Virus record (IMG/VR): IMGVR_UViG_3300036790_000386 | Span: 1 to 64,000 of that record | Length of the DNA stretch: 64,000 nucleotides | From: a virus | Strand: one strand, 5' to 3' | Part shown: positions 4,200 to 51,387 of the stretch, one piece after another | Layout: every line of letters begins with the position of its first letter | How positions within the stretch are numbered: position 1 is the stretch's first letter | Translations under genes and position numbers: made by a program | The notes under the pieces: generated by a model | Told to the model about the DNA's origin: nothing | Database searches by the model: none | What the model saw: only the letters and a program-made list of their open reading frames with translations

Positions 4200-4395
4200 A
4201 AAAATCAGAGTTGTAGCAACCTACCAAGAGCAATCCACTTTCAATACAGACCTCACGTGGAACTATAGATTGCTTTCAGATGGTGTCTGTGAAGTTTGGT
4301 CACAGGCATGCAGAAGGTGGTTCCATTATAATTTCACGCGCGCGTTGCGCGCCTCGCCGCCTTCGGCGGCTCGCACAAACACAAAGAAAAAATAA
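4171..4395 (+). CDS. hypothetical protein whose 3' end is formed by repeat copy 1
   Basis: In-frame ATG at 4171 within ORF 4135..4395; the tail NFTRALRASPPSAARTNTKKK is read through the repeat. Confidence 0.4.
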   Translation: MDQLSQLQNEKIRVVATYQEQSTFNTDLTWNYRLLSDGVCEVWSQACRRWFHYNFTRALRASPPSAARTNTKKK

Positions 4396-4416
4396 AACTT
4401 TATTACACCAGGCCCC
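4326..4416 (+). repeat. twin-hairpin dispersed element, copy 1
   Basis: TTCAC-GCGCGC-gtt-GCGCGC-CTC-GCCGCC-ttc-GGCGGC-TCGCACAAACACAAA-15 nt-TATTACACCAGGCCCC. Confidence 0.97.
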
Positions 4417-4419
4417 AAC

Positions 4420-4614
4420 ATGTCAAATAAGCGAAGGTTAGCTTTAAATAACGGCGATCGTGTCAAACACACAAAAACTAAAGCTGTCGGCACTTACACT
4501 GGAATGAAATCTTTTGTCATCGGTGAAAAGCGCAGCAATCGTTGGTGGATAGTGTGGGACGGTGAAGTTCAACTAAGGTCTCATACTCAAGATGAACTCG
4601 AACGAATCAAGTGA
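4420..4614 (+). CDS. small SH3/KOW-like basic protein
   Basis: GDRVKH...VGT...WIVWDG pattern. Confidence 0.5.
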   Translation: MSNKRRLALNNGDRVKHTKTKAVGTYTGMKSFVIGEKRSNRWWIVWDGEVQLRSHTQDELERIK

Positions 4615-4787
4615 GACGCATTGCTGAATTTGAGTGTTTAAATTGTCACTATAAATGGCAACAACCAGCCGGCCCAACACAATGTGCAAGGTGCGGTCAT
4701 CTCTATATTAAATGGATAAATTACAATGAAGCAAAGCCAGAATTACCTAAAGGAAGCCTTTCAAGCTTTGTTAGCTGGCGACACTGA
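4611..4787 (+). CDS. small Zn-ribbon protein (not in ORF track)
   Basis: GTG start overlaps the previous stop; FECLNCHYKW...CARCGHLYIKW. Confidence 0.55.
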   Translation: MRRIAEFECLNCHYKWQQPAGPTQCARCGHLYIKWINYNEAKPELPKGSLSSFVSWRH

Positions 4788-4938
4788 TAAGAGAGATGAT
4801 CTGTGCGCGAAATCAAAACTTGCACAAGAAGCGGAACTAAAGGCAGAGGCAATAGCTATAATTTTATCTATAGATTTTTATGTTTACGCAGATGGCACTG
4901 CAATCATAACAAAAGAAATGTATGCCGCGGCTCATTAG
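4726..4938 (+). CDS. hypothetical protein
   Basis: 70 aa helical ORF. Confidence 0.5.
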   Translation: MKQSQNYLKEAFQALLAGDTDKRDDLCAKSKLAQEAELKAEAIAIILSIDFYVYADGTAIITKEMYAAAH

Positions 4939-4970
4939 GCAGAGAATTAAAAAATTAAAGGAAACTAATA

Positions 4971-5402
4971 ATGTCTGATAAAGAAATACCTATCAAACAA
5001 TACCAGGCCGAAGCTGAAGCAACAAAATCCAACATGTTTATTGTCCCCGGCCATGATAATGTATTGTATAGCCTTCCGATTGATGTTCTCCACGCAGCTT
5101 TTGGCCTGTCCACAGAAGCAAATGAAGTTCTTGATATAGCCAAGAAAGCTATGTTTTATGGTAAAGTTATCGATTGGGTCCACATGGATGAAGAAGTTGG
5201 TGATATACTTTGGTATGTTGCTATCTACTGCAATTCTAGGGGTAAAACTTTCGAGGAACTTTGCAAGACAAATAACACCAAACTGAAGACTCGTTTTCCA
5301 GACAAGTTTACACAGTTTCACGCAATTAATCGTCAGTTAGATATTGAGCGAGAGGTTCTTGAAGAATTAAGTGCCACTGCTGAAGATGTTAAGGGCCAAT
5401 GA
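4971..5402 (+). CDS. mazG: MazG-like nucleotide pyrophosphohydrolase
   Basis: GLSTEANEVLD..KK..EEVGDILWY..NNTKLKTRFP. Confidence 0.88.
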   Translation: MSDKEIPIKQYQAEAEATKSNMFIVPGHDNVLYSLPIDVLHAAFGLSTEANEVLDIAKKAMFYGKVIDWVHMDEEVGDILWYVAIYCNSRGKTFEELCKTNNTKLKTRFPDKFTQFHAINRQLDIEREVLEELSATAEDVKGQ

Positions 5403-5415
5403 AGATAGATCGTTA

Positions 5416-5500
5416 GGGCCTGGTGTAATAAATCTTAATTCTTCTTTGTGTTTGTGCGAGCCGCCGAAGGCGGCGAGGCGCGCAACGCGCGCGGGAAACT
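5416..5500 (-). repeat. twin-hairpin dispersed element, copy 2 (inverted)
   Basis: Reverse complement is identical over 85 bp to 51302..51386. Confidence 0.97.
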
Positions 5501-5514
5501 AAAAGGTAAATCAA

Positions 5515-6507
5515 ATGGCCGATGATATTAAACCAGAAGATACTATTCCATCATTAGGCTTTTTGGACGAGATTGAAACATCGCCAGTTAAAGCATTGTT
5601 GTTGGGTGATAGTGGACTTGGTAAAACTGGCGCAATGGCTTCGTTAGTTTGTGCTGGTTATAAGCTCTATATCTTGGACTTTGATATGGGCACGCCGATT
5701 TTAAGAAATGCTCTTGGCAGTTCGCGCTCTCCTTATGCTCAGTATTGCAAAGCTAAAAATATCAATGTTAATGATCATGTGTTTTCGTTACAATTGACTG
5801 AAAAGATGAAAGTGATGGGTGGTAAGCCAACACCTGTTTCTGCTCAAGTCTGGACAAAAGCTGGAAATGCTCTTGAAAATTTTAAAGTAGGTGATCGTAA
5901 ACTTGGCAATATTGGAGAATGGGGACAAGACGTAATTCTTGTTATCGATTCTTTTACCACATTGGGTTTTGCTGCTCTTTGGAATGTACAAGCGATGAAC
6001 AATCGTCTTGGTGCTGATTTCAGTGGCTATGATTGGCAACGTGATGTTGGACAAGCTCAGAATATGATGGAACGCTTGTTGCAGCTTCTTTATTCAAAAG
6101 CAGTTGGGTGCAATGTACTTGTTATTAGTCATATCACTTTTGTTGATGATTCTAAAGGCGTCGCTACTGCTCCTTCTCGTGACCCAGACGCCCCGAATAT
6201 TCAAGTTCGTGGCTATCCTTCTGCTATTGGTCGCTCCCTTAGCCAACGTGTTGGACGCTATTTCAATGATAGTTTCCAATTAGAGATGGTAGGTCATGGT
6301 CCAACAGCAAGAAGGTATATCTATACGCTTCCTCCATCAAATGTTTTGGTTAAATCTTCTGCTCCATTTACGTTGAAGCCGAAGTACACAATTGAAACTG
6401 GTTTAGCTGAAATTTTCGCAGGATTGAGAGGTCAGCCTGAACCAGAGGATTTAATTAGAACTTCTGAGCGTGAAGTGTGGTACAAAGCCACCCGACAGAA
6501 GGACTAA
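5515..6507 (+). CDS. Sak4-like (AAA_24) P-loop ATPase / ssDNA annealing protein
   Basis: Walker A GDSGLGKT, Walker B LVIDSFT, VLVISH; lies near the exonuclease and SSB-like gene. Confidence 0.78.
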   Translation: MADDIKPEDTIPSLGFLDEIETSPVKALLLGDSGLGKTGAMASLVCAGYKLYILDFDMGTPILRNALGSSRSPYAQYCKAKNINVNDHVFSLQLTEKMKVMGGKPTPVSAQVWTKAGNALENFKVGDRKLGNIGEWGQDVILVIDSFTTLGFAALWNVQAMNNRLGADFSGYDWQRDVGQAQNMMERLLQLLYSKAVGCNVLVISHITFVDDSKGVATAPSRDPDAPNIQVRGYPSAIGRSLSQRVGRYFNDSFQLEMVGHGPTARRYIYTLPPSNVLVKSSAPFTLKPKYTIETGLAEIFAGLRGQPEPEDLIRTSEREVWYKATRQKD

Positions 6508-6637
6508 CGATATCAAACTTCTATGAGAGTTTGATTTTAAGCAACTTTAATCCAGGAGATAAAAATGTAAACGAACCGGCTACGCAAATAATTTAATTTC
6601 TTTTTAAGCCTTTTTAATCAAGTGAGCAAATTAAATC

Positions 6638-7072
6638 ATGCCACCAGTAAATGTTTCTGATCTTCTTCGTCAACCAACCGACAAAGCTGAACGTCCTGCA
6701 CTTCTCCCAGATGGTCATTTTACAGGCACAATTCTGCGTCATGAATTTGACAAGAGCCGTCAGAAGAAGACTCCACTGGTTCGTTTCTTTTTGAATCCAA
6801 CTGGTGTTTCGACTGATCTGACTGAAGAGGATATCGAGGGAATCAACCTTAAGACTCTTGAACTTCGGCTTGAATTTTATTTGACACCGAAGTCCATGTA
6901 TCGTTTGGCTGATTTTTTGGATGGTGTTCTTGGCGAAGGGAGCGGTGAAGGCTATGATGAGCGGCTTCCTGAGACTAACGGTGCTAATGTCATTTTTGGC
7001 GTGCGTCAGCGTCTTAATGACGAAGGTAAGCCTATCGGCAACGAAGTTACAACCGTTGTTGGTGAAAATTAA
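6638..7072 (+). CDS. SSB-like OB-fold protein (DUF669-like)
   Basis: LLPDGHFTGTI..EFDKS..KTP pattern; directly follows Sak4-like gene. Confidence 0.55.
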   Translation: MPPVNVSDLLRQPTDKAERPALLPDGHFTGTILRHEFDKSRQKKTPLVRFFLNPTGVSTDLTEEDIEGINLKTLELRLEFYLTPKSMYRLADFLDGVLGEGSGEGYDERLPETNGANVIFGVRQRLNDEGKPIGNEVTTVVGEN

Positions 7073-7084
7073 CTGACTAAACTG

Positions 7085-7115
7085 GAGGGGGAGATTAAAC
7101 TCTCTCCCTCTTTTT
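7085..7115 (+). terminator. Rho-independent terminator
   Basis: GAGGGGGAGA-ttaaac-TCTCTCCCTC followed by a T run. Confidence 0.8.
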
Positions 7116-7145
7116 AGCTTTAGATAGTTTACTAGAATATTTTGA

Positions 7146-7266
7146 ATAGAAGTTTCATTAATTCAAAGAAAAATTACAATTGGATTTTATGGAAATGGAA
7201 AGAAAGCTATTTTAGCTTACAATGAGTTAGCTTAGTGGCTTTTTGGGAATAAAGTACCATATAATA
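7146..7266 (+). pseudogene. remnant of AP2 domain (HNH-AP2 endonuclease C-terminus)
   Basis: Reads RKITIGFYGNGKKAILAYNELA*WLFGNKVPYN with an in-frame TAG. Confidence 0.5.
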
Positions 7267-7278
7267 AGGTAGCTTTCA

Positions 7279-9041: not shown

Positions 9042-9080
9042 TTTTAAATATAAATTTGTATCAAGAAGGGAATAAAAGCT

Positions 9081-10639: not shown

Positions 10640-10659
10640 CTTAAATAAGGAATGAACAA

Positions 10660-12815: not shown

Positions 12816-14006
12816 TTGCGCGATTGGATAGACCAGTATTTAGAAGAAACACAAGGAATGCCTTCGCCAGCTGAGTATCGTTTATGGTCCGCAATAACTA
12901 CTATCAGCGCCGTTATGGAACGAAAGTGTTGGACCTCTGCTTCAGGGGGAGCTTTCTATCCTAATCTTTACACGGTTTTAGTTGGCGGTCCTGGATCTGG
13001 AAAATCTCAAGGTGTTTCTATTGCAAGAAATCTATGGGCTAAAATCAAAGATCTTAATATTGCGCCTGATAGCGTTAGCAGAGCATCTTTGCTTAAAGAC
13101 CTAGCAAAAGCGATCCGCACAGTGACGCTTTCTGACGGCAGACCAAGAATATTTTGTTCGCTTGCGATTGCCTGCCGCGAATTTAATACACTGTTTCCTA
13201 GCTATGACCGAGATTTTGCCGCTGCGATGAATGATTTATTTGACAATCCACCAGAGTATAAATTAACCCGCATTTATTCAGGTGAAACATGTATCAACGC
13301 TCCAACTATGACTATGATTACCGCCGTAACTCCAGACACACTAGGCGACACACTGCCCGAGCCCGCTTGGGGCTCCGGGTTTACCGCGCGTTTGTTGCTG
13401 ATTTATGCGAGCGAAAAACCGGATGTGGATTTTTTTGAAGAACACGATGAAGACAATCAAGATATGTATCGAAGACTTGCTCCACCGTTGAATGACATTT
13501 TTCATTTAAGTGGTAAATTTGAGTGGACTGATGAAGCAAAGAATGAATTAAGAAATTGGAAACAAGGTGGTTTTCAGCCTGTACCTGAACATTCCAGACT
13601 AAGACACTATTTAACTCGTCGCGAAACTCATGTAGCTAAACTTGCAATGATTTCTGCTGTCAGTTCCAAACGAAAGCTTGTTGTTGATGAAAATGACGCT
13701 AAAAGAGCTATTCAATGGCTTATTAAAGCCGAAGCTAGAATGCCCGACATTTTCAGAAGCATGGGACAAAAATCCGATACTCAACTCATTAAAGACCTCC
13801 ACTTCCATATCTACCAACTCTGGGCTTCCGTGGAACGCTCCAAAAGAGTACCAGTCAATGAAAAAGAATTCTACAAATTTTTATCCGAGCGAGTACCGTC
13901 AGAGCGTATTGAAAAAATTCTTGAAATGGCAGTCAGAACTGGAGCTTTCAAAACCGCAGGAAATGGAGATTGCTATGTCCCAAGACCTTTATCTGGACCT
14001 GTATAG
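12816..14006 (+). CDS. DUF3987-type P-loop protein, putative replicative helicase
   Basis: YPNLYTVLVGGPGSGKS; GSGFTARLL; directly downstream of polA. Confidence 0.72.
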   Translation: MRDWIDQYLEETQGMPSPAEYRLWSAITTISAVMERKCWTSASGGAFYPNLYTVLVGGPGSGKSQGVSIARNLWAKIKDLNIAPDSVSRASLLKDLAKAIRTVTLSDGRPRIFCSLAIACREFNTLFPSYDRDFAAAMNDLFDNPPEYKLTRIYSGETCINAPTMTMITAVTPDTLGDTLPEPAWGSGFTARLLLIYASEKPDVDFFEEHDEDNQDMYRRLAPPLNDIFHLSGKFEWTDEAKNELRNWKQGGFQPVPEHSRLRHYLTRRETHVAKLAMISAVSSKRKLVVDENDAKRAIQWLIKAEARMPDIFRSMGQKSDTQLIKDLHFHIYQLWASVERSKRVPVNEKEFYKFLSERVPSERIEKILEMAVRTGAFKTAGNGDCYVPRPLSGPV

Positions 14007-14529
14007 TAAACCATACGAATTTGAAAAGAAAACTGAACAACTGTACAGGTTTTCATGGGATGTCGGCATGATAGATATAAATAGTTTTCCACATGGAATA
14101 CACTGCCTTTCACTTGATTATGATAGTTGTTATTATTTGATTAAAATAAGAGTAGCAATACCAGATAATACACCAGAAGGAGATGCTATTATTATGCTTC
14201 GTGAATATTTAAACCAAGAACTTCCTTCTGGGTTTCATGTAGATATTTATATTCAACGTTTCGTTTCTGTGATGGAATATACACCATCTACCTATAACAA
14301 CTTATATCAAGCTCCAACAACTCTTTTTAGTTTTAGTACAGAAAGTAGTAGTAGAGATGAATTTCAAAGGGCAGCAACTTATTTTACAAAAGATATGGGA
14401 TCTTCTTCTCCAAAGCAATTTACCGCACAGCAAGCCATGAATCTTATAGAAAAAATGAAAAAGAATCCTAAGCTTGAAGTTAAACCTAAAGAACCTAAAA
14501 AAGACTTAATTATCGATAGTTTATTTTGA
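13975..14529 (+). CDS. hypothetical protein
   Basis: GGAG RBS before ATG 13975. The longer 13678 start overlaps the upstream gene by over 300 bp. Confidence 0.55.
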   Translation: MSQDLYLDLYSKPYEFEKKTEQLYRFSWDVGMIDINSFPHGIHCLSLDYDSCYYLIKIRVAIPDNTPEGDAIIMLREYLNQELPSGFHVDIYIQRFVSVMEYTPSTYNNLYQAPTTLFSFSTESSSRDEFQRAATYFTKDMGSSSPKQFTAQQAMNLIEKMKKNPKLEVKPKEPKKDLIIDSLF

Positions 14530-20674: not shown

Positions 20675-21310
20675 ATGATAAAATTTCAAAAAATTCTTAT
20701 TTACGGTGTAGTATCGCTGTATGCAACAATGCTGCTTGCAGCTTACACCAATAAACTAAATCTCCATGAAACATTAACACTGACATTTTTGCCAGCTATT
20801 CTTTTGCTTTATTTTTATCCAACAATTTATGCTTTTAAACTTAATAGATCATTTGTCATTCCTGTTTTATTGGTTAATACATTTTTTGGTTGGACTATAG
20901 TTGGCTGGCTATTAGCTCTATATGGCGCAATTAATAAAAAAGAAACAGAAAGCAGTGCTAAGGTTTTAAAAGAAAGACAAGCTGCATTTAATGCGTTAGG
21001 CGCTTTGATGCTTTTTGCAATTTTACTCTTTATTTTGCAATCATTGGGAATTTTTGTTCATAGCTTTAATTTCATGAACCAAGATGCAACAGATTATTTA
21101 TTTTGGGGTCTGTTAATTGGTTTGTATTTTCTTCCAACATACATTGCATATAAATGCAAATCCAACATTATTCAAGTCATTTTTCTGTTAAATATCTTTC
21201 TTGGTTTAACTGGCATTGGTTGGTTATTCTGTGTTGCTCTTGGAATTTGGAGTGGAGCCAGAAGAATTATTATTATAGATAATATAAATCAACTTCATAA
21301 AGAAGATTAA
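20675..21310 (+). CDS. tandem superinfection immunity (T4 Imm-like) membrane protein
   Basis: Two copies of LYFxPT.IA...N.F.G.T..GW. Confidence 0.8.
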   Translation: MIKFQKILIYGVVSLYATMLLAAYTNKLNLHETLTLTFLPAILLLYFYPTIYAFKLNRSFVIPVLLVNTFFGWTIVGWLLALYGAINKKETESSAKVLKERQAAFNALGALMLFAILLFILQSLGIFVHSFNFMNQDATDYLFWGLLIGLYFLPTYIAYKCKSNIIQVIFLLNIFLGLTGIGWLFCVALGIWSGARRIIIIDNINQLHKED

Positions 21311-21322: not shown

Positions 21323-21751
21323 GTGCGCAGAAGTGAAGAAATTGTCAGTAGATACAAAGAATTAAGTAAAAATGAACATGAAGATTCATTTGGAATTCAA
21401 CGGACAAATTTACTAAAATTTTTACCATTTAGTACAATTAAAACATATCTTCGTCCAGATTTTCCAGAAGAAGCTCGTGATATGTGGGACTGGAAGCCAG
21501 TAACAGAAGAAACTGTTAAACAAATCATTTTTGACTATATGCCATTTGCTTGGAAAAAAGCCAACCAACGGCGCAGTGTTCCTGCAATACGCTCATTGGA
21601 GCATATGAAAATCTGGTTATGGTTGCTTGAAGATACTCTTGCAGATCAACTGGAATATTATCAGTTTTACGGCAAAGACAAACTAGAAATGATCTGCAAC
21701 AAGTTCAACTGGTGCTGGGAAAAGTGGGACAATGGTGAAAGATTTAACTGA
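21323..21751 (+). CDS. hypothetical phage protein
   Basis: AGGAG RBS, GTG start; YMPFAWKKA..RS..H..W.W..YGK. Confidence 0.65.
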   Translation: MRRSEEIVSRYKELSKNEHEDSFGIQRTNLLKFLPFSTIKTYLRPDFPEEARDMWDWKPVTEETVKQIIFDYMPFAWKKANQRRSVPAIRSLEHMKIWLWLLEDTLADQLEYYQFYGKDKLEMICNKFNWCWEKWDNGERFN

Positions 21752-22194
21752 TGCACATAATTGTAGACATTGATGGTACGCTTGCAGATGGCACTCATCG
21801 CCAGCATCTAATTAAAGGTGGCCCTGATAACATAAATAAATGGAAAGATTATCAAGCTCTATCTCACCTTGATGCAGTTATTGAGCCAATTGCTCATGTA
21901 GTTAGACAGCTTTATTGTGCAAAGAATACTATATTAATTTGCACCGGCCGCCAACAGTTTGAACGAGCCGCAACGGTCAAGTGGCTTGGAGAGAACTCTA
22001 TACCATTCCATGAAATATTTATGCGCACTTCTAACGATTTCAGACACGATGATATTATTAAAGAAGAATTACTGGATTACATGCTTACGCAAGGATTTTT
22101 GCCTCAGCTTGTTTTCGAGGATCGTCAGTGTTGTGTTGATCTATGGAGACGCAGAGGATTAGTTTGTTGTCAGGTAGCTCCAGGTAATTTTTAA
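21751..22194 (+). CDS. HAD phosphatase (PNKP 3'-phosphatase-like)
   Basis: DIDGTL, CTGR, MR..DFRHDDIIKEE, FEDR. Confidence 0.88.
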   Translation: MHIIVDIDGTLADGTHRQHLIKGGPDNINKWKDYQALSHLDAVIEPIAHVVRQLYCAKNTILICTGRQQFERAATVKWLGENSIPFHEIFMRTSNDFRHDDIIKEELLDYMLTQGFLPQLVFEDRQCCVDLWRRRGLVCCQVAPGNF

Positions 22195-22977: not shown

Positions 22978-23892
22978 GTGAAAAAAAATATCGAACAAGC
23001 CACCTTGATGATCCAAGCTTTTGAAAGCGTTGGATGCAACTATTTTACCCTAGTAGCAGAAAAAAATAATGAAACAGTATTTATTCGCCGTGCTGTTGAT
23101 GCAGAATTTATCAAGCTTAATCTCAGAAACGACCTTGAACATGCTGCTAGGGTATCTTGTAATCTGCACCTTCGACCCTATTCTCGATTATATTATTTGG
23201 TGCAGCTTGACGATATTCGCATTTTTCCTTTTTGTGTTTGTGCGAGCCCGCTGGAGGCGGGCGAGGCGACCGCAGGTCGCGTGAATTCACCATTTATCAT
23301 TACAGAAACAAGTTCAAAAAGTTATCAATGTTGGTTAGCTTTAAATAAAAAGTTTACAGTAGACGAAACTAAGATAATTAAAAAGATTTATCAGGCGGAT
23401 TTGGGCGCTACGGGAAGCTGCCGACTGGCAGGTTCAACCAATTTTAAGGAAAAATATTCGCCAAATTTTCCAACCGTTAGAGTTGTTTTTAGTTCTTTAT
23501 ATACTCTAGCGGATTATGAAGAATTATCTACTCAGATAATTCAATTTAATGCGCGGCAAGCCGCGCCTCGGCGGCTTTCAGCCGCCTCGCACAAACACAA
23601 AAAAGAATTTAACAATATTACACCAGGCCCCAAACTAACTAGAACTCTTGCATGGCCTTTTTATTCAAAAGCTATTCAACAGAACGATGGTAGAAGAGAT
23701 GGTTGGGGTCCAGATCGAAGTAGGGCTGATTTTGCTTGGGCAATTATGGCACTGAAATTTGGGCACTCAGTTGAAGAAGTTGCAGCAAAGCTTCAACAGA
23801 TTAGTGATAAGGCAAGAGAGAAATCGGAATACGAAGCGGAGTTGTATGCCTTTAATACGGCACTGCGTGCTTCTGAGGTTTATAATAGGTGA
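22978..23892 (+). CDS. RepB'-type (RSF1010-like AEP) DNA primase with C-terminal helix bundle
   Basis: NLHLRP, VQLDD, ETSSKSYQCW, AD.GATGSCRLAGSTNFK.KY; C-terminal DRSRADFAWA..A..G...EEVAAKL...S.KA...YA..T. Confidence 0.82.
   Translation: MKKNIEQATLMIQAFESVGCNYFTLVAEKNNETVFIRRAVDAEFIKLNLRNDLEHAARVSCNLHLRPYSRLYYLVQLDDIRIFPFCVCASPLEAGEATAGRVNSPFIITETSSKSYQCWLALNKKFTVDETKIIKKIYQADLGATGSCRLAGSTNFKEKYSPNFPTVRVVFSSLYTLADYEELSTQIIQFNARQAAPRRLSAASHKHKKEFNNITPGPKLTRTLAWPFYSKAIQQNDGRRDGWGPDRSRADFAWAIMALKFGHSVEEVAAKLQQISDKAREKSEYEAELYAFNTALRASEVYNR
23231..23287 (-). repeat. twin-hairpin element, copy 3 (inverted, inside primase gene, compensatory stems, no distal box)
   Basis: Reverse complement: TTCAC-GCGACC-tgc-GGTCGC-CTC-GCCCGC-ctcca-GCGGGC-TCGCACAAACACAAA. 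Confidence 0.93.
23551..23631 (+). repeat. twin-hairpin element, copy 4 (inside primase gene, compensatory stems)
   Basis: GCGCGG-caag-CCGCGC-CTC-GGCGGCT-ttc-AGCCGCC-TCGCACAAACACAAA-14 nt-TATTACACCAGGCCCC. Confidence 0.95.
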
Positions 23893-23903: not shown

Positions 23904-24449
23904 TTATGGCAATAATAGGTTTGACTCGATTCTGTCAATAACAGAATGCGCCCAAGCAATATCGTCTTCGTCAATTTCGCCAAAATTACCTCCAAATGCT
24001 GATGCAGTCATCGGAAGTTCTTCACCGATTTCTGCTGCTTGCCAGATTACGTCATGCGATAGGTTTGATATACTTACAGCGGTGTGATTGGAGCAAATTG
24101 CATTAATTACCGTATCAACCAAGCTAATTTGCTCAGCTGAAAATATAGAAATATCAGGCTTCTTCAACGAGAAGAATTGCGTTTGGTTGTACACGTAGGT
24201 TGGGATCTGTCGTTCAACTAAAGCCCCTGACTTCACAAGGCGTGCGCGGGAAGCCATAATATCTCTGGGGGTCGGTCCAAATTGGCGCTTGATATACGTC
24301 GCTCCAGTTATAGAACTCCCGTATTCAGCGAAGGCAAACATGTCAGAATACCACAAAACCTTATTAAGTTTTGTAACTCCAAGTTTGTTAGGATTATCGC
24401 ACCGCGCACATATGTAGTGCGTGAGTGTGTCTAATTTCGCATGTTCCAC
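23904..24449 (-). CDS. Panacea (SocA/DUF4065) antitoxin-domain protein
   Basis: LGVTKLNKVLWYSD..YGSSITGATY....GP.P; ISNLSH..W. Confidence 0.85.
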   Translation of the reverse strand: MEHAKLDTLTHYICARCDNPNKLGVTKLNKVLWYSDMFAFAEYGSSITGATYIKRQFGPTPRDIMASRARLVKSGALVERQIPTYVYNQTQFFSLKKPDISIFSAEQISLVDTVINAICSNHTAVSISNLSHDVIWQAAEIGEELPMTASAFGGNFGEIDEDDIAWAHSVIDRIESNLLLP

Positions 24450-35809: not shown

Positions 35810-36499
35810 TTAAGCTTCGATGAGATTCAAATCATAAACATCAAGGACAAAACCGTTATTGAAGAAACTACGATCAACTGGCTGCCACTGACCCCAAGTA
35901 GTAAGATTGTAAACTTCACCATCAAAGCCGTCAAAGCAACCGCAATGATAACCCCAAGAACCTACTGTACCAGCGCCGATCCAAAGTCTTTCATTTTGCT
36001 GTTGAGTAGCTAGGCCCATAACAGTCAAAACATAGCCCTTATCTTCAATAATTTTACGAATTCTATTTTCATCTTTAGGATTAATGGAAGTGGAACTTTG
36101 AAGTTTGTATCCAGCAATTGTATTATCTTCCCACCATACCAAGAACTGATTAATATCAGTACCATTGTCAGTAGAAGTATCACCAGAAACATAGCCAGTA
36201 ACAGCAGAATAAATCTGCAAAGCTAATTCATTTGGAATTGCTGTAAAAATACCTTTGCGTGCAAGTAGTGTTTGAATAACATTGCATGCGCCAGTTGGAA
36301 CACAATCACCAACAGTATCATTGAAACCTTGAACTCGTGGAGTATTAATGATACGCTCCCAAGCTGGAAGCAATTCTTCAAGAGTTAAAAGTTTTGGAGT
36401 AATTTCAAAAGAACGTTTTGGTGTTCTCTTTGCACCTAATTTCATTGCTGCTAACTGAGTAGGCAGAAACATCTCTACCATATTAAATGTTTCCTTCAA
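35810..36499 (-). CDS. papain-like cysteine peptidase (putative)
   Basis: NDTVGDC, DNGT, GYHC, TWG; start uncertain. Confidence 0.6.
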   Translation of the reverse strand: MKETFNMVEMFLPTQLAAMKLGAKRTPKRSFEITPKLLTLEELLPAWERIINTPRVQGFNDTVGDCVPTGACNVIQTLLARKGIFTAIPNELALQIYSAVTGYVSGDTSTDNGTDINQFLVWWEDNTIAGYKLQSSTSINPKDENRIRKIIEDKGYVLTVMGLATQQQNERLWIGAGTVGSWGYHCGCFDGFDGEVYNLTTWGQWQPVDRSFFNNGFVLDVYDLNLIEA

Positions 36500-36500
36500 T

Positions 36501-36590
36501 TTATAATTTCACGCGCGCGTTGCGCGCCTCGCCGCCTTCGGCGGCTCGCACAAACACAAAGAAGGATTAAGATTTATTACACCAGGCTCC
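36501..36590 (+). repeat. twin-hairpin dispersed element, copy 5
   Basis: Core identical to copy 1, including the TTATAATTTCAC leader; distal box TATTACACCAGGCTCC. Confidence 0.97.
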
Positions 36591-36613
36591 AGAAGATTTC
36601 TTTTGGGGCCTGG
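36582..36613 (-). terminator. hairpin after lipoprotein gene, formed with the distal box of copy 5
   Basis: CCAGGCTCCAGAAG...CTTTTGGGGCCTGG imperfect inverted repeat about 10 bp past the stop at 36623; no clear U-tract. Confidence 0.4.
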
Positions 36614-36622
36614 AGTTGTAGT

Positions 36623-37150
36623 TTAGGAAAGTGGAATTGGAATTGGCGCAATGATAACTTGTTTCGCGCGGACGAGAGAAGCAGGAGGGGTAACAACTGC
36701 GGCAGCTGGCACGGTAATTGTGGAGAGTCCTGAAATAAAGGCGGACAGAAGCAGCAAGCCGAGAGAGATGGCTGCGCCTGTTGGTCCTGGAAGAATGGTT
36801 GCTGGAATCAATGGAAGAATCTGCCCAATAAGACCAATAACTTCTTGAGCAACCTGATTGACAGTAGCAGAGCCAGAGGTCAATTGTCCAAAAGCGGTAA
36901 CTGCTGTACCAAGCGCAGAGTAAGCAGATGAGATTTCACCGCTGATAGAAGAACTGACGGAAGATTCTGCCAGAGAGACAAAGCTACCAAAAGCTTGGTA
37001 GATTGCTTGAGCTTCAGCCTGTGCAGTAGCAAGATTAACGGTAACACTGGTATTGAGAGGATTACCGTTAATAAGAGAACAACCGGCTAGAGTAGAAGCA
37101 CCAACAGCAAAAGCAGCAAATGTGCCCAAATTACGACGAGTGAATTTCAT
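36623..37150 (-). CDS. Tat-signal lipoprotein (possible spanin or exclusion protein)
   Basis: MKFTRRNL twin-Arg, lipobox LAGC, hydrophobic C-terminal segment. Confidence 0.65.
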   Translation of the reverse strand: MKFTRRNLGTFAAFAVGASTLAGCSLINGNPLNTSVTVNLATAQAEAQAIYQAFGSFVSLAESSVSSSISGEISSAYSALGTAVTAFGQLTSGSATVNQVAQEVIGLIGQILPLIPATILPGPTGAAISLGLLLLSAFISGLSTITVPAAAVVTPPASLVRAKQVIIAPIPIPLS

Positions 37151-41100: not shown

Positions 41101-41340
41101 CTAATGTATTTTATGAAAACTTAAATAGGCAAAGATAAATTCACCTACCCCAGCAAGTAATATAAAAAAGGCTCCCACTTTCATGAAAGCCCAAATAGCT
41201 CCTTTACCTAAAGATGCAATTTCTTTTAAGACAGATAGATCAGATTTAATTTGTTTTAGATCTTCTCTCATATCTTTATCGGATTGTTCTAAAAGTGCAA
41301 GGCGTTCACCATTTGTAAGATCATTCAATTTAGCCTCCAA
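41101..41340 (-). CDS. coiled-coil plus single TM protein (holin/antiholin-like)
   Basis: ERLALLEQ..., KGAIWA followed by a TM helix. Confidence 0.5.
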   Translation of the reverse strand: MEAKLNDLTNGERLALLEQSDKDMREDLKQIKSDLSVLKEIASLGKGAIWAFMKVGAFFILLAGVGEFIFAYLSFHKIH

Positions 41341-45136: not shown

Positions 45137-45146
45137 AAAAATTTCC

Positions 45147-47404: not shown

Positions 47405-47413
47405 TATCTCTTC

Positions 47414-47797
47414 TCAGGTAGTTGCTGGCGCAATAGTCTGAATAGATGGAAATGTAGTTGTGCCAAATACAGTATTTATATTTGAGCCTGAAACAGAATA
47501 TGTTCGTGTAGATGCTGTATAATTGACATTCCAATTTTCAATATTAATTACACCAGGAACCGCCAATACAGCAGTCTTTAAAATTAATGCACCCATAGTT
47601 AAATTGCCATAACCAGCAATTTGAGTATTATACGGGATGCCCGCTGAAAGATTTAAAAACCACTCTGTTTGCCATAATTTTAAACTGGTGCCAACGATTT
47701 GAGATACAGCAGCTGCACTATCAATAAGATAATTTGCTGAACCTTGCCCAAATGTCATATCACCAGTTGAGCTTAATGTTCTGACCCTAAGAACCAT
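47414..47797 (-). CDS. baseplate wedge / sheath initiator (gp25-like)
   Basis: R.L...GD.TFG.G...; L.LW..EWFL....G.PY. Confidence 0.75.
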   Translation of the reverse strand: MVLRVRTLSSTGDMTFGQGSANYLIDSAAAVSQIVGTSLKLWQTEWFLNLSAGIPYNTQIAGYGNLTMGALILKTAVLAVPGVINIENWNVNYTASTRTYSVSGSNINTVFGTTTFPSIQTIAPATT

Positions 47798-47830
47798 TGA
47801 ATACCACGCTGCTGCTTAAATAGATGTAAT

Positions 47831-49450
47831 TTATAATTCTGCACTTGCTGTTACTGAGCATTCCATTAAACCTGCTCCTGAAGAGGTTATTAATGCTTGC
47901 AATATACATCCAGTATCAGATTCAAAATTTACAGCACCTGTAGATGCATTAGTGTAAGCTGGAGATATTATACTAACACTAGGAGTTCCTCTCATCATCG
48001 CAGGCCACGTGAACCATTGAAAAATACCACCACCAGGTCCATTATAACCTGGTACGATAACAGTTCCAAATTCACAATAATACCTTTGGCACGAAATAAA
48101 TTCAGTTGCAATGCTACGCCGTTCAAATGATGTAGCAACTGTACCTTTTTCAAGTTGAATATCTGTAGCGCCAATTTCGTTATTAATAGTTTCAGGCCAA
48201 TTTGTACTTGTTGAACTACACAAATAAGAACCACTTTGCCATGAACCAAAAATGGATGTGGCATAAGTTCCAATAGTGTACGCACCTATAACAAGAGTCA
48301 AGCCTGTTGAAGATGAATTAGGAACATTTGCTCCTGATGGTATAGATGTTACAGGAATTACTACTTTTTGAAACGCCCCAGATCCTGTATAGGAGAAGTT
48401 TTGAACAAACGAGTTTGTGCCAGTCCCATCAAGCAAAGCAACGCTATATGTACCATTTACCGTTGCGTAAAAAATAAACGAAATAACAACTGGCTGACCA
48501 ACAAGATCATAGCAGTTGGCTCCTTCAATTCTCTGCTCTATGCCTCCAACATAATTTGTTCCAGTGAAACCAGAACAAGCAGAAATAGCTTGCAAATATA
48601 TAAAATTGTGCGTTGTTACGCTGCCATAACTGCCACCACTTGCTTGACTTTGATAAATGGTCCCAGATACTGCATTATTAATTCCAATAAACCTATCAGG
48701 ACCACCATAAGCTGTTGTACCGTTGGGAAGTGAAACCGTACTTCGCTGAGCTACTCGACAATCACCGTTAATAATTCTATTTTTTAAAGTATTGAACTGG
48801 CTAACAGTTAAGCCCTGACCACTCGCAGTACCTGGTGCAATTTGAACAGTACCACCCCCTGAAATAAGATTCCAAGTAGAAGAAGTTGAACTATATTGCA
48901 ACAATGCTGTATTGCTTGCAACAATTTCACCTCCTTGCAAAGTAGAGCCACCCATAGTTATGTTCTTAGCATCGCCGCCTGCATTAAATGTTGATGCTCC
49001 TATATTTGTATTAGCTGGATTAAACGAAACAAACATTCCATCAGTATAAGTTGTAATTGCAGGAGTTAAAGCAACAACATAAGCGTTAGCTGAGCCTGAA
49101 TCTGTTGCTTGATAATTATATGAATTTTGTTGAATAACATTATTGAAATTAGTTAAAATTCCAGCAGTAACATCAGAATAAATTGTATCTCCTTCAACCC
49201 ATTCTTGTGCAGTTGAACCTTCTTGTCCACGAAGAACAGTAAGATTTAAACCTGATATTGCTGTAACCCAAACAATTTCAAATATGCCAGCAGTTGCTGG
49301 ATGAATAATTGTTAGAGATAAATAAGATCCTGAAGGTATTGCCGGAAATCCAGAAACACTTGCTACAGAAACTGTAGTAACAGCATCATTAATGCCGGAA
49401 GTTAAATCTGTATCAATATTAGTTCCAAAAACAAAAACTTCTGTTGTCAT
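47831..49450 (-). CDS. tail fibre / receptor-binding protein
   Basis: EIV.VTA.SG..LTV.RGQEG; DSGSANAY; KNRIING...VAQR; QLEKG.VAT.FE.R...E...CQRYY. Confidence 0.75.
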   Translation of the reverse strand: MTTEVFVFGTNIDTDLTSGINDAVTTVSVASVSGFPAIPSGSYLSLTIIHPATAGIFEIVWVTAISGLNLTVLRGQEGSTAQEWVEGDTIYSDVTAGILTNFNNVIQQNSYNYQATDSGSANAYVVALTPAITTYTDGMFVSFNPANTNIGASTFNAGGDAKNITMGGSTLQGGEIVASNTALLQYSSTSSTWNLISGGGTVQIAPGTASGQGLTVSQFNTLKNRIINGDCRVAQRSTVSLPNGTTAYGGPDRFIGINNAVSGTIYQSQASGGSYGSVTTHNFIYLQAISACSGFTGTNYVGGIEQRIEGANCYDLVGQPVVISFIFYATVNGTYSVALLDGTGTNSFVQNFSYTGSGAFQKVVIPVTSIPSGANVPNSSSTGLTLVIGAYTIGTYATSIFGSWQSGSYLCSSTSTNWPETINNEIGATDIQLEKGTVATSFERRSIATEFISCQRYYCEFGTVIVPGYNGPGGGIFQWFTWPAMMRGTPSVSIISPAYTNASTGAVNFESDTGCILQALITSSGAGLMECSVTASAEL

Positions 49451-49452
49451 TA

Positions 49453-50202
49453 TTATGATCCAGGGACAGGAGGTGCAGTTGTACCAGTACCAGGTTTAAC
49501 ACCATTGTGATCATGATTCTGTAGAGTAACAGAACCACCTGTACCGCTACCTGCTGTAACATCGCCACTTGCTGTAACGTTACCATTACTATCAACACTA
49601 AAAAATCCACCAGGAAATGCTAAACTAAAACCAGCAGGAGTTAAACTCATAGTAGCTGCGCTATCTGGAAGTGTTGCTACTAAACCTGATTTGCTAAAAG
49701 TTACTGAAGCTGTGCCATCATCAGAACGAAGCTGAACTGTAGTATCACTAACATTATTAAGCAATCTAGTTGAATTGCGACCGCCTAGCTCAAAAAAGCC
49801 ATCTGAAAGATCATGCTTGCGAAGAGAACCAGAATTATTTGAGGCTAGTGTTGGTTGAACTCCACCAAGAAGCCACCAGTTATCAATACACCTAGATGAA
49901 AATGAAATTGTTCCTTCGTCACCTACAGCGACTGGAAACGTCATTGTATAACCACCACCGGATGGAAACTTAATCGGAACCATTGGCATAAGTGGCATTG
50001 GAAATGGAACCCAACTTACATTGCCGCTAGCGTCAACTTGTCTCAATAATGGTGTTATTGTAGATTGAACTGTAACATGCTGGCCATCATCTTCAATTGC
50101 TGTAACTATACAAGGCAACTTTGTCCACATTCTACTTTGGAGATTGTCCAAAGCAGCATTCATTGCATTTTGTGGGTCTTCCCAGCGTTCATAATTTAAC
50201 AT
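49453..50202 (-). CDS. baseplate central spike (Gp138/GpV-like)
   Basis: VP.FP.GGG...FPV..GDEG...R.ID.W; HDLSD; C-terminal H-x-H. Confidence 0.85.
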   Translation of the reverse strand: MLNYERWEDPQNAMNAALDNLQSRMWTKLPCIVTAIEDDGQHVTVQSTITPLLRQVDASGNVSWVPFPMPLMPMVPIKFPSGGGYTMTFPVAVGDEGTISFSSRCIDNWWLLGGVQPTLASNNSGSLRKHDLSDGFFELGGRNSTRLLNNVSDTTVQLRSDDGTASVTFSKSGLVATLPDSAATMSLTPAGFSLAFPGGFFSVDSNGNVTASGDVTAGSGTGGSVTLQNHDHNGVKPGTGTTAPPVPGS

Positions 50203-51299
50203 TAGGAACCACCACCATTTATTCCAGAATATGGTTGAACTTGCTGATAATTTTTTGGATTAGTTGAACCACCAACAGGAACAGCAGAAATAACAACTAA
50301 ATCAGAATACCAATCATTTCCGCGAGAGTCGCCTCGATGCTCTACAACAAGAATAATATAAGTTCCATCAGCAGAAACATCCATAATGTAGTCAGAAATT
50401 CCAGGACCAGGAAAAATTGGCTCTTGAATTCCTTGAATGCTATTGCCTTGCGCAGCTAATGTTTGATTAACTATTGTATTGTTAATTATAACTGGCCGTC
50501 GAATTCCATAAGAAGGATTTAAAAGTGTTCTAACTTCCAATCCATCAGATGTTGTTACTGGAAACCCAACCATACCAGTTAAAGAATTAATAATAAAAGC
50601 TGTTGTATCTGAAATCGATACATTAGATGGAACTAAAACAAACTGTCCATTCTGTATAGACCACTCCATTGGCTGGCCACCAACGTATACAGACTTAGCT
50701 GTATTATCTAAAATTGGAGCAGACAGCCCATATTGAACAGTTGGTCGAGGTTGTATAGGAAGCACAGGGGCAGCAAGAACTTGACTACTAGGAACAGTTG
50801 TATCCCAAGGAGTTAAAGACTGAGCTAATGCTTTAATTCTTCCTTGTGGTGTATTTGCAGATCCTATAAGTGTGCTTGATATAGTTGCATTATTGTAGGG
50901 TCTATCACCATCAGCTGCATCAATTTCTAAAAAGCTATCAACAGCCGTTTCGCCTCCAAATTTAATTTGACGAATTGTTCCATCGAAAATAACACCAAAA
51001 CGGCCATTTAGATAACCAGCAGAAAGTGTAACTCTACGATACTGATTTTTAATCATAGTTACTAAATTATTACTAACATTATAAATTTTAATACTACAAT
51101 AATTTGGAATACTTGCAGTTGTTTGATGTACTTCAAAGACAATATGAAGCTGTTCTTCACCTGGAGCATCAGACCCAGCAGAAATTTGTGTTGCTACATT
51201 AGCTCCAGCCGCTGAATCATAAACAACTACTGACCATTTTCGTAACCATTGGTCTGATACAGTTGAAGTTGATGTTGGAGTTGAATATGCTTGTGACAT
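50202..51299 (-). CDS. baseplate hub protein
   Basis: WLRK; I.IYN; LSAGY...G.IFDG.I; DGD; WSIQNG; H.GDSRG.DWY. Confidence 0.8.
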   Translation of the reverse strand: MSQAYSTPTSTSTVSDQWLRKWSVVVYDSAAGANVATQISAGSDAPGEEQLHIVFEVHQTTASIPNYCSIKIYNVSNNLVTMIKNQYRRVTLSAGYLNGRFGVIFDGTIRQIKFGGETAVDSFLEIDAADGDRPYNNATISSTLIGSANTPQGRIKALAQSLTPWDTTVPSSQVLAAPVLPIQPRPTVQYGLSAPILDNTAKSVYVGGQPMEWSIQNGQFVLVPSNVSISDTTAFIINSLTGMVGFPVTTSDGLEVRTLLNPSYGIRRPVIINNTIVNQTLAAQGNSIQGIQEPIFPGPGISDYIMDVSADGTYIILVVEHRGDSRGNDWYSDLVVISAVPVGGSTNPKNYQQVQPYSGINGGGS

Positions 51300-51301
51300 T
51301 C

Positions 51302-51387
51302 AGTTTCCCGCGCGCGTTGCGCGCCTCGCCGCCTTCGGCGGCTCGCACAAACACAAAGAAGAATTAAGATTTATTACACCAGGCCCC
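51302..51387 (+). repeat. twin-hairpin dispersed element, copy 6
   Basis: Fills almost the whole 51300..51390 intergenic gap; identical to copy 2 over 85 bp. Confidence 0.97.

What the first reader, a model, noticed from the sequence alone, without database searches (positions are those of the whole stretch)
4326..51387. Genome-dispersed twin-hairpin element (6 copies, both strands) with covarying stems: candidate network of single-strand priming sites for the phage's RepB'-type primase
Seen: six copies at 4326(+), 5416(-), 23231(-), 23551(+), 36501(+) and 51302(+) share the layout stem1-CTC-stem2-TCGCACAAACACAAA. Five also carry TATTACACCAGGC at a fixed 14-15 nt distance. Stem sequences change but pairing is kept: GCGCGC/GCGCGC, GCGACC/GGTCGC, GCGCGG/CCGCGC for stem 1, and GCCGCC/GGCGGC, GCCCGC/GCGGGC, GGCGGCT/AGCCGCC for stem 2. 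The CTC linker and the 15-mer are invariant. Orientation relative to transcription is mixed (4 one way, 2 the other), which argues against a purely mRNA-level role. On the complementary strand the element reads TTTGTGTTTGTGCGA-hairpins, and many loops are GNA triloops (GAA, GGA, GCA). Established: GNA triloops give extra-stable ssDNA hairpins. RSF1010 RepB' primes only at hairpin ssi sites, and RepB'/pRN1-type primases use a GTG template motif. Inference: these are ssi-like sites. The + copies are about 19, 13 and 15 kb apart, as expected for sparse fixed priming points in strand-displacement replication by PolA plus the DUF3987 ATPase. Alternatives are N4-like hairpin promoters or a REP/MITE-like mobile repeat.
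Basis: partly seen in the sequence, partly recalled or inferred. Interest (0 to 1): 0.93.

Follow-up and report, generated by a model that had tools for sequence, protein, structure and literature searches.

The report
Twin-hairpin repeat family in a phage
A 102-kb phage carries ten copies of a ~90-base element made of two GC hairpins plus an invariant 15-mer, two of them written in frame inside its own RepB'-type primase gene. The element is real and its hairpins are under selection, but whether it is a DNA priming site, a transcription signal or a selfish repeat cannot be settled from sequence alone.

Summary
The 15-mer TCGCACAAACACAAA occurs 6 times in the window (0.41 expected by chance). 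A covariance model finds exactly 10 elements in the whole 101,927-bp genome. Nine of 12 stem pairs show compensatory changes, and 95% of cells are paired.

Eight copies fill intergenic gaps. Two inverted copies lie in frame inside ORF 22978-23892, which I confirmed as a RepB'-family primase (E 1.7e-15 to PDB 3h20). Those segments are insertions: the relative P0006 and all distant relatives lack them.

The element is not an intrinsic terminator, since it has no T run in either direction and canonical terminators exist elsewhere. It has no sigma-70 hexamers, and the phage encodes no RNA polymerase, sigma factor or transposase that I could find.

One strand carries GNA and GNRA loop caps, including CCGAAGG, the heptamer found in the RSF1010 ssiA hairpin. 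Orientation is 7:3 relative to both transcription and the inferred fork direction, which is not significant.

My best reading is an ssi-like single-strand DNA signal for the primase that spread by insertion (about 0.33). The main rivals are a PeSL-like transcription cassette (about 0.27) and a selfish RPE/MITE-like repeat (about 0.17). The same family was also noted by the scan in the overlapping window of this genome.

The parts
4326..4417 (+). Copy 1, intergenic, 127 nt after the DUF6899 gene. It has the same sense as the flanking + strand genes and forms an inverted pair with copy 2, 1.1 kb away.
   Evidence: Covariance model 111.5 bits, E 2e-19; exact 15-mer at 4371-4385; 13-mer at 4401-4413
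5414..5504 (-). Copy 2, fills the gap between the MazG gene (4971-5402) and the AAA_24 ATPase gene (5515-6507). Identical over 85 bp to copy 6.
   Evidence: Covariance model 102.2 bits; exact identity of 5416-5500 (reverse complement) with 51302-51386; Pfam hits for the neighbouring genes
22978..23892 (+). RepB'-family primase ORF (304 aa) that holds copies 3 and 4 in frame. It is the last gene of the + strand arm, and its stop codon lies 11 nt from the convergent - strand arm.
   Evidence: Profile against PDB 3h20_A, E 1.7e-15; hhalign to IncQ RepB, probability 97.7%, with both element-encoded segments as insert states; 514 relatives found
23201..23292 (-). Copy 3, translated as FCVCASPLEAGEATAGRVNS between the QLDD and ETSS motifs. 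It lacks the 13-mer. Its stems GCGACC/GGTCGC and GCCCGC/GCGGGC are perfect.
   Evidence: Covariance model 73.3 bits; translation; AF2 pLDDT below 50 at aa 84-103; relative P0006 and all distant relatives lack the segment
23539..23632 (+). Copy 4, translated as NARQAAPRRLSAASHKHKKEFNNITPGP in the linker before the helix-bundle domain. The element is complete and its stems are perfect.
   Evidence: Covariance model 83.7 bits; translation; pLDDT below 50 at aa 171-224; insert state in hhalign
36501..36591 (+). Copy 5, in the gap between two - strand genes, antisense to them. Anatomy: left flank 36501-36512, hairpin 1 36513-36527, CTC 36528-36530, hairpin 2 36531-36545, 15-mer 36546-36560, purine-rich spacer 36561-36574, 13-mer 36575-36587.
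   Evidence: Covariance model 103.8 bits; minimum-energy fold gives the two hairpins on both strands; no sigma-70-like promoter in 36350-36750
51298..51388 (+). Copy 6, fills the whole 91-nt gap between a virion protein gene (51391-51693) and the baseplate hub gene (50202-51299). It begins 3 nt after one gene's stop codon and ends 10 nt before the next ATG.
   Evidence: Covariance model 100.3 bits; gene map; no promoter-like or terminator-like site

Best explanation
The element is a cis-acting signal that works as folded single-stranded DNA. It is read on the strand that carries 5'-GGGGCCTGGTGTAATA-(14-15 nt, pyrimidine-rich)-TTTGTGTTTGTGCGA-hairpin-GAG-hairpin-3'. The most likely reader is the phage's own RepB'-type primase, making the element an ssi-like priming site. 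When that strand is exposed, the two GC hairpins capped by GAA, GGA, GCA or GTAA loops fold and resist SSB. The primase docks on the invariant flank and the hairpin base, and starts a short primer at a GTG. If the start is the T of the GTG nearest the hairpins, the primer would be ACAAACACAAA, 11 nt, which is exactly the remainder of the invariant block and matches the 11-12 nt RepB' primer length. DNA synthesis then runs away from the hairpins. The ten sites would let a primase that cannot prime at random convert exposed strands of a 102-kb genome into duplex. The inverted pair inside the primase gene would fire outward in both directions. The sites were acquired by insertion and still spread or homogenise within the genome. 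What is shown: the family, its covariation, the strand asymmetry of the loops, the primase family assignment, the insertion status of the in-gene copies, and the absence of terminator and sigma-70 features. What is inferred: the single-stranded state, the primase as reader, the start point and the direction of synthesis.
For: (1) The primase is a true RepB' relative. RepB' is known to need structured ssi sites: a 5' flank, a hairpin, and a GTG with the start at T32, giving an 11-12 nt primer (PMC8567376; PMC4434180). (2) Loop caps are asymmetric. On one strand they are GAA (most), GGA, GCA and GTAA twice; on the other TTC, TCC, TGC and TTAC. CCGAAGG is the heptamer in the real ssiA hairpin, and ssiB has GCGCAGC. 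(3) Across 11 distinct stems there is no true wobble pair and only one mismatch, and triloops predominate over RNA-type tetraloops. (4) Both strands read T-rich, then hairpins, then A-rich. No T run follows the hairpins in either direction, so transcription can pass through. Canonical terminators with a T run exist elsewhere in the genome. (5) Both in-gene copies fall in the primase gene, which is 0.9% of the genome. They are the most diverged copies yet keep perfect stems. (6) The 15-mer is invariant in 9 of 10 copies while the stems drift, which points to a sequence-specific reader next to a structure-specific one. (7) Seven of 10 copies have the folded strand on the predicted lagging-strand template, if forks start near the iteron-like cluster at 80.5 kb and the GC-skew minimum.
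Against: There are two short 6-7 bp hairpins rather than one 21-nt hairpin. No GTG lies 4-6 nt 3' of the hairpins, and a GTG directly 3' occurs in only 5 of 10 copies. My preferred start site, 5' of the hairpins, reverses the ssiA geometry. Read on the GNA-loop strand, the pair in the primase gene points the opposite way to ssiB/ssiA in RSF1010. The 7:3 orientation is not significant and is equally predicted by transcription. The 13-mer and the fixed spacer have no counterpart in ssi sites and look more like a two-block protein or polymerase site. Five near-identical copies and empty sites in relatives fit a spreading cassette of any function. No relative genome, read data or biochemistry was available.
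Confidence: 0.33

Rival explanations
1. The element is a transcription or RNA-level punctuation cassette, analogous to the PeSL 'mobile regulatory cassettes' of T4-like phages. Read in the mRNA sense, the two conserved blocks (GGGGCCTGGTGTAATA and TTTGTGTTTGTGCGA, 14-15 nt apart) would be a promoter or a factor-binding site for a phage-modified host RNA polymerase. The hairpins would form a stabilising or processing leader just upstream of the next ribosome-binding site.
For: Eight copies are intergenic and fit their gaps tightly. In 7 of 10 the T/G-rich strand is the mRNA strand, and the hairpins end 10-45 nt before the next start codon. In copy 6 the flank GGGAAAC serves as the Shine-Dalgarno sequence. 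Three such copies are followed downstream by canonical terminators, giving units 5445 to 7107, 76547 to 75672, and 51343 to 41169. The two-block motif has fixed spacing. Inverted pairs flank cassettes of ORFans (4420-5402; 84331-87061), as PeSLs do (PMC4122927).
Against: There are no sigma-70-like hexamers in the conserved part on either strand. No phage RNA polymerase, sigma factor or DxDGD motif was found. Copies 4371+ and 87199+ have no gene downstream in that sense. Two copies lie inside the primase ORF, where a promoter or a terminator of either polarity would cut or oppose the primase mRNA. The terminase and portal operon has no copy upstream. The loops are mostly triloops and there are no G-U pairs, which is unusual for a selected RNA.
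Confidence: 0.27
2. The element is a selfish miniature repeat, like REP/BIME, MITEs or the Rickettsia palindromic elements. It spreads within the genome and is merely tolerated. The hairpins and the 15-mer serve its own mobilisation, for example recognition as single-stranded DNA by a host or phage enzyme.
For: Copies occur in both orientations. Five copies are 78-95% identical, and two are 100% identical over 85 bp although 46 kb apart and inverted. Insertions sit in frame in disordered loops of a gene, as RPEs do. Empty sites exist in relatives P0006 and beyond. Gaps such as 51300-51390 are essentially the element alone.
Against: There are no terminal inverted repeats and no visible target duplication at the boundaries. 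No transposase, HUH or RAYT-like gene was found. Stem sequences vary, which does not fit a sequence-specific hairpin-binding transposase. The old, diverged copies keep perfect stems and the exact 15-mer, and P0003 keeps the insert-encoded residues at about 49% identity. No copies occur in any other phage, metagenome or bacterial genome scanned.
Confidence: 0.17
3. The hairpins are N4-type single-strand promoters for a phage-encoded RNA polymerase, or the element is an intrinsic or bidirectional transcription terminator.
For: The 5-7 bp stems with GAA or GGA triloops match the N4 promoter hairpin type. GC-rich hairpins between genes are the usual look of terminators.
Against: The phage has no giant or T7-like RNA polymerase. 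The largest ORFs are the terminase (1022 aa) and Gly/Ser-rich fibre-like proteins. Transcripts from an N4-like geometry would be antisense at 7 of 10 copies. No T run follows the hairpins on either strand, and the scan calls no terminator at any copy, while real hairpin-plus-T-run terminators occur elsewhere. The hairpins end 10-45 nt before start codons of genes that must be expressed.
Confidence: 0.06

Closest known systems
ssiA/ssiB single-strand initiation sites of IncQ plasmid RSF1010 (RepB' primase)
   Same: The replicon encodes a RepB'-family primase. There is an invariant single-stranded flank next to a GC-rich hairpin. The hairpin is capped by a DNA mini-hairpin motif: CCGAAGG, identical to ssiA, and a C-GCA-G cap like that of ssiB. 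GTG triplets lie beside the hairpins. There is an inverted pair on opposite strands. An 11-nt invariant stretch matches the 11-12 nt primer length.
   Different: There are two short hairpins instead of one 21-nt hairpin, and ten dispersed copies instead of two inside oriV. GTG is not at +4 to +6 on the 3' side of the hairpin. An extra 13-mer lies at a fixed distance. The pair sits inside the primase ORF, far from the iteron-like cluster, and with the opposite relative polarity. There is no sequence similarity in the flanks beyond short words.
PeSL / PmSL promoter-stem-loop cassettes of T4-like phages (Arbiol 2010; Comeau 2014)
   Same: Both are a conserved composite of a stem-loop plus a conserved block, repeated in one phage genome. 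Both flank ORFan cassettes, and near-identical copies suggest recombinational spread.
   Different: PeSLs carry recognisable sigma-70 or MotA-type promoter boxes and a terminator-like stem with a T run, and they are co-oriented with transcription. This element has none of these, and two of its copies are inside a gene.
Rickettsia palindromic elements (RPE) and REP/BIME repeats
   Same: All are short structured repeats in both orientations. This element's in-frame insertion into permissive loops of a protein-coding gene resembles RPEs, and its extragenic position between operon genes resembles REPs.
   Different: There are only ten copies, in a phage, with no RAYT or transposase. The stems covary rather than being sequence-conserved, and an invariant non-palindromic 15-mer is attached.
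Phage N4 virion-RNAP hairpin promoters
   Same: Both have small 5-7 bp GC stems with purine-centred triloops that can extrude from DNA.
   Different: There is no vRNAP gene. The copies are dispersed rather than clustered at the early end, and most are antisense to the genes in the N4 geometry.

Membership tests
RSF1010-type ssi site | A cognate RepB'-family primase is encoded by the same replicon | tested here: met
   Profile of ORF 22978-23892 and relatives against 3h20_A, E 1.7e-15; hhalign to IncQ RepB, 97.7%
RSF1010-type ssi site | A single hairpin of about 21 nt (nt 7-27) capped by a mini-hairpin motif, within a 40-nt site | tested here: inconclusive
   The CCGAAGG cap is present, as in ssiA. 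But there are two 15-17 nt hairpins joined by an invariant 3-nt linker, and the element is about 90 nt long
RSF1010-type ssi site | A GTG 4-6 nt 3' of the hairpin, where the primer starts at the T | tested here: not met
   The 3' flank on the GNA-loop strand is GTG (5 copies), GGG (3), ATG (1) or ATT (1), directly at +1 to +3. The invariant GTGs lie 5' of the hairpins
RSF1010-type ssi site | One copy per strand, inverted, inside oriV beside iterons | tested here: not met
   There are ten copies (7 on +, 3 on -). The inverted pair is inside the primase ORF. The iteron-like cluster is at 80.5 kb
RSF1010-type ssi site | Primase-dependent, site-specific priming on single-stranded DNA | not testable with these tools
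   Needs biochemistry; complex prediction takes no DNA
PeSL promoter-terminator cassette | A recognisable sigma-70 (or Mot-box) promoter next to the stem-loop | tested here: not met
   No qualifying hexamer pair in the conserved part at any scanned copy
PeSL promoter-terminator cassette | Copies flank variable ORFan genes and are co-oriented with transcription | tested here: inconclusive
   Two inverted pairs flank ORFan or MazG cassettes, but orientation is 7:3 and two copies are intragenic
Intrinsic terminator | A GC-rich hairpin followed by a T/U run | tested here: not met
   No T run within 12 nt on either strand in any copy. The scan calls no terminator at the copies. True terminators occur elsewhere
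N4-type hairpin promoter | A cognate virion RNA polymerase (T7-like domain in a giant protein) | tested here: not met
   No RNA polymerase family hit and no DxDGD motif. The largest ORFs are the terminase and fibre-like proteins
MITE / REP / RPE | Terminal inverted repeats and target duplications (MITE), or an associated RAYT or transposase (REP) | tested here: not met
   The boundaries of the 85-bp identical pair show neither. No transposase-like gene in the Pfam or PHROG scans
MITE / REP / RPE | Filled versus empty orthologous sites | tested here: met
   At protein level only. P0006 (46% identity) and all more distant relatives lack the site-1 insert, and most lack the site-2 insert. DNA of relatives was not obtainable
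Rfam RNA families | A match to any curated covariance model | tested here: not met
   Only three tRNAs in the genome pass gathering scores. Nothing better than E 3.4 at a copy

The most novel reading that the evidence does not exclude
A large tailed phage replicates with an IncQ-type (RepB') primase and has solved that enzyme's need for structured start sites by seeding its genome with ten twin-hairpin ssi-like cassettes. Two of them are written in frame inside the primase gene itself. The cassettes still spread by insertion, so primase and site together form a self-propagating priming module.
Probability: 0.3. Interest if true: 0.85.

Novelty: new variant of a known kind. Interest (0 to 1): 0.62.

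Why it matters
RepB'-type primases are known only from small IncQ plasmids that replicate purely in leading-strand mode from two ssi sites. With either the phage protein or IncQ RepB as query, I found no match among 50,697 GenBank phage records. If a 102-kb myovirus uses such a primase with a dispersed set of structured start sites, it would show a third way to organise complementary-strand synthesis, between random Okazaki priming and single-origin strand displacement. It would also give a compact, testable primase-site pair. Whatever the function, the family is a clean case of a nucleic-acid structure kept by compensatory change while being translated inside an essential gene. It is also a phage counterpart of in-frame palindromic elements.

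Tried and rejected
**Searches for relatives (nothing usable)**
- Megablast of 20 kb against GenBank phages: no match.
- Exact 16-mer scan of IMG/VR: 23 single hits, none with hairpins, so all are chance matches.
- Composite 15-mer-plus-13-mer pattern in JGI metagenomes and in GTDB genomes: chance hits only.
- The search for related loci with the primase, the tail sheath and the primase-family profile: no relative in IMG/VR.
- tblastn of the primase, and of IncQ RepB, against GenBank phages: no match.

**Ideas tested and dropped**
- Rfam: no family matches.
- Extra conserved structure beyond the two hairpins: none shared by the copies on either strand. Only copy 5 has an added 14-bp hairpin, at 36582-36613.
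- Small genes downstream of the two 'wrong-way' copies (4371+, 87199+): none found.
- sigma-54, MotA, T4-late and SPO1-type promoter readings of the conserved blocks: no convincing match by eye (own knowledge; not a formal test).
- parS half-site resemblance (TTTCACG): only a half-site, so dropped.
- IS200/IS605 PATE idea: dropped, because the hairpin sequences vary and no TnpA is present.
- GC skew: noisy, confounded with gene strand, and not decisive.
Full report
**1. The observation**

The 15-mer TCGCACAAACACAAA is exact at 4371+, 5445-, 23231-, 23587+, 36546+ and 51343+. Chance would give 0.41 hits at up to 2 mismatches, and no shuffle reached the observed count. TATTACACCAGGC is exact in five of these copies, 14-15 nt downstream. 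Alignments show the common plan: AT-rich left flank (TTATAATTTCAC or AGTTTCCC), hairpin 1, CTC, hairpin 2, the 15-mer, a purine-rich spacer, then TATTACACCAGGCCCC.

The window is the first 64 kb of a 101,927-bp virus record. The rest of the genome holds four more copies, at 69366+, 76547+, 84237- and 87199+. A covariance model built from the ten finds exactly these ten (73-112 bits), and the next hit has E above 1.

On the model-based alignment, 9 of 12 stem pairs change on both sides and 95% of cells pair. The covariation score is 0.574 against 0.170 in shuffles (0 of 500 reach it), and pairing collapses when partners are slid. Of about 30 perfect GC-rich hairpins in this 39% GC genome, 19 belong to the ten elements; the remaining hairpin, hairpin 1 of copy 87199, carries one mismatch.

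**2. Genome context**

Plus-strand genes run from 81.3 kb through the record's ends to 23.9 kb. Minus-strand genes run from 81.0 kb down to 23.9 kb.

The phage is a myovirus:
- It has a tail sheath, tape measure, baseplate, portal, major capsid protein and terminase.
- Its replication genes are a split PolA, a DUF3987 ATPase, an AAA_24 ATPase, a PD-(D/E)XK nuclease and MazG.
- Scans of about 70 ORFs found no RNA polymerase, sigma factor, transposase or HUH enzyme, and there is no DxDGD motif.

Eight copies sit in intergenic gaps that they nearly fill. Copy 6 starts 3 nt after a stop codon and ends 10 nt before the next ATG, with its flank GGGAAAC in the Shine-Dalgarno position.

The four copies within the minus arm are all '+'. 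The plus arm and the junction hold three inverted pairs: 84237-/87199+, 4371+/5445- and 23231-/23587+. Two of these pairs bracket cassettes of ORFans, one of which also holds MazG.

**3. The two copies inside the primase gene**

ORF 22978-23892 stays open through copies 3 and 4. A profile of this ORF and its relatives hits RSF1010 RepB' (PDB 3h20) at E 1.7e-15 over both domains. hhalign to an IncQ RepB gives 97.7% probability and treats the two element-encoded segments as insert states. An AlphaFold model has pLDDT below 50 at aa 84-103 and 171-224, which contain those two segments. They correspond to a loop after the catalytic DD motif and to the interdomain linker.

Among 514 relatives:
- P0003 (49% identity) has shorter inserts at both places and shares the residues FPFCV and H.KK...TPG, which the 15-mer and 13-mer encode.
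- P0006 (46% identity) has nothing at site 1 and only a short extra stretch at site 2.
- All more distant proteins lack both inserts.

So the in-gene copies are lineage-specific insertions. Although they are the most diverged copies (51-76% identity to the others), their four stems are perfect and the 15-mer is exact. The nucleic-acid structure is therefore under selection even where it is translated.

**4. What the element is not**

- **Not an intrinsic terminator.** On both strands the order is T-rich, hairpins, A-rich. No T run follows the hairpins, and the scan calls no terminator at any copy. Proper hairpin-plus-T-run terminators occur at 7084, 41169, 75672, 79406 and 93848. The hairpins also end 10-45 nt before start codons of genes that must be read.
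- **Not a sigma-70 promoter.** No qualifying hexamer pair lies in the conserved part.
- **Not an N4-type promoter.** There is no vRNAP, and transcripts in that geometry would be antisense at 7 of 10 copies.
- **Not a known RNA family**.
- **Not a classical MITE.** The boundaries of two copies that are identical over 85 bp show no terminal inverted repeat or target duplication.

**5. Which strand, and DNA or RNA?**

The loops are strongly asymmetric. On the strand that reads TTTGTGTTTGTGCGA they are GAA (in five distinct stems), GGA, GCA, GTAA (twice), CTTG (twice) and AAC. On the other strand they are the complements. C-GAA-G and C-GCA-G are the DNA 'mini-hairpin' caps.

The review PMC13037366 notes CCGAAGG in the ssiA hairpin. 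I confirmed this on a real IncQ plasmid: ssiA is at L057 601-640, and ssiB, on the other strand, has GCGCAGC. The phage's commonest hairpin contains the same CCGAAGG.

Across 11 distinct stems there is one mismatch and no genuine wobble pair, and triloops outnumber tetraloops. Together with flanks that avoid termination in both directions, this leans towards a folded-DNA role. It is an argument, not a proof.

**6. Comparison with ssi sites**

RepB' binds the six 5' nucleotides and the first pair of a 21-nt hairpin. It starts a DNA primer of 11-12 nt at T32 in a GTG located 4-6 nt 3' of the hairpin (PMC8567376; PMC4434180).

The phage element shares:
- an invariant flank;
- GC hairpins with the same cap;
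- nearby GTGs;
- an inverted pair on opposite strands.

It differs in having:
- two short hairpins;
- ten dispersed copies;
- no GTG at +4 to +6 (a GTG directly 3' in only 5 of 10);
- an additional 13-mer at a fixed distance;
- a pair whose polarity, read on the GNA-loop strand, is opposite to ssiB/ssiA.

If priming starts at the T of the GTG nearest the hairpins, the copied stretch is ACAAACACAAA. This is 11 nt, exactly the rest of the invariant block. It is a suggestive coincidence and an inference only. Membership in the ssi family therefore fails on several defining features. 'Works like an ssi' remains open.

**7. Orientation and spacing**

Relative to the local gene, the T/G-rich strand is the mRNA strand in 7 of 10 copies. 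An iteron-like cluster of GCTTTAG(C/T)G sits at 80.5 kb beside the divergent junction. The cumulative GC-skew minimum is at 84-88 kb and the maximum near 30 kb. If forks start near there, the same 7 of 10 copies lie on the lagging-strand template. Seven of ten is not significant, and the two frames of reference coincide, so orientation cannot discriminate. Intervals range from 0.36 to 19 kb, which is not regular.

**8. Signs of spread**

Five copies share identical stems and are 78-95% identical overall. Copies 2 and 6 are identical over 85 bp, including the otherwise variable spacer, although they are 46 kb apart and inverted. Three copies carry the GCCGCC hairpin first instead of second. With the empty sites in primase relatives, this shows that the element has moved or been converted recently. 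PeSL cassettes (PMC4122927) and palindromic elements behave the same way.

**9. Verdict**

The family is real, structured, restricted to this lineage in every collection I could search, and unexplained by any known class. I rank the readings as follows:

| Reading | Confidence |
|---|---|
| ssi-like single-strand DNA signal for the RepB'-type primase | 0.33 |
| PeSL-like transcription or RNA cassette | 0.27 |
| Selfish RPE/MITE-like repeat | 0.17 |
| N4-type promoter or terminator | 0.06 |
| Something else | the remainder |

The main reasons for putting the primase reading first are these. A RepB'-type enzyme must have structured sites somewhere in its replicon. This element is the only candidate in the genome. 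It shares the ssiA cap. Its only intragenic copies are an inverted pair in the primase gene, where neither a promoter nor a terminator makes sense. The main reasons for caution are the failed ssi membership features, the unexplained 13-mer, and the complete lack of comparative or experimental data.

As a result, the two most decisive computations could not be run: reading the relatives' DNA, and mapping read ends.

Noticed in passing
outside the window: genome 80508-80592 (L032:16508-16592) and 78478-78526 (L032:14478-14526): Clusters of the 9-mer GCTTTAG(C/T)G (6 copies and 3 copies; 15 hits in L032 against 5.6 expected), plus a GCGCCTTGA x4 tandem near 79.7 kb, beside the divergent gene junction. 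This is a candidate iteron/origin or operator region.
   Followed up: partly
window 22978-23892, against the GenBank phage collection: A RepB'-family primase is very unusual for a phage. tblastn with this protein, and with an IncQ RepB, found no match in 50,697 phage records. The large protein library holds 514 relatives, mostly unnamed metagenomic proteins.
   Followed up: partly
genome ends (window 1-127 and genome 101801-101927): The 'direct terminal repeat' is exactly 127 bp, a common assembler k-mer length. It probably marks a circular assembly rather than physical ends.
   Followed up: no
window 12816-14529: The DUF3987 ATPase ORF (12816-14006) overlaps a 283-aa ORF with no family hit (13678-14529) by 330 nt in another frame. 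Otherwise 14007-14525 would be a 519-nt gap. This may be a frameshifted or two-part helicase gene.
   Followed up: no
outside the window: genome 72449-75517 (L032:8449-11517): The terminase large subunit ORF is 1022 aa. Its first ~290 residues also hit DnaC-like loader and primase PHROGs, so it may carry an extra P-loop domain or an inserted element.
   Followed up: no
window 36582-36613: In copy 5 only, the element's 3' end (CCAGGCTCC) pairs with a downstream GGGGCCTGG to make an extra 14-bp hairpin, just after the stop codon of gene 36623-37150.
   Followed up: partly
window 7084-7107 (+), 41169-41192 (-); genome 75672-75703 (-), 79406-79431 (-), 93848-93875 (+): Canonical hairpin-plus-T-run terminators in the sense of the local genes. 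The phage therefore uses ordinary intrinsic terminators, which are distinct from the twin-hairpin family.
   Followed up: yes
window 23904-24449 (-), 20675-21310 (+), 21751-22194 (+), 85-759 (+): Accessory genes: a SocA/Panacea-domain protein, a superinfection-immunity protein, a PNKP-type phosphatase, and a vWA protein with weak Ro60-vWA similarity. The last fits the Ro60/Y-RNA note made on the other window of this genome.
   Followed up: no
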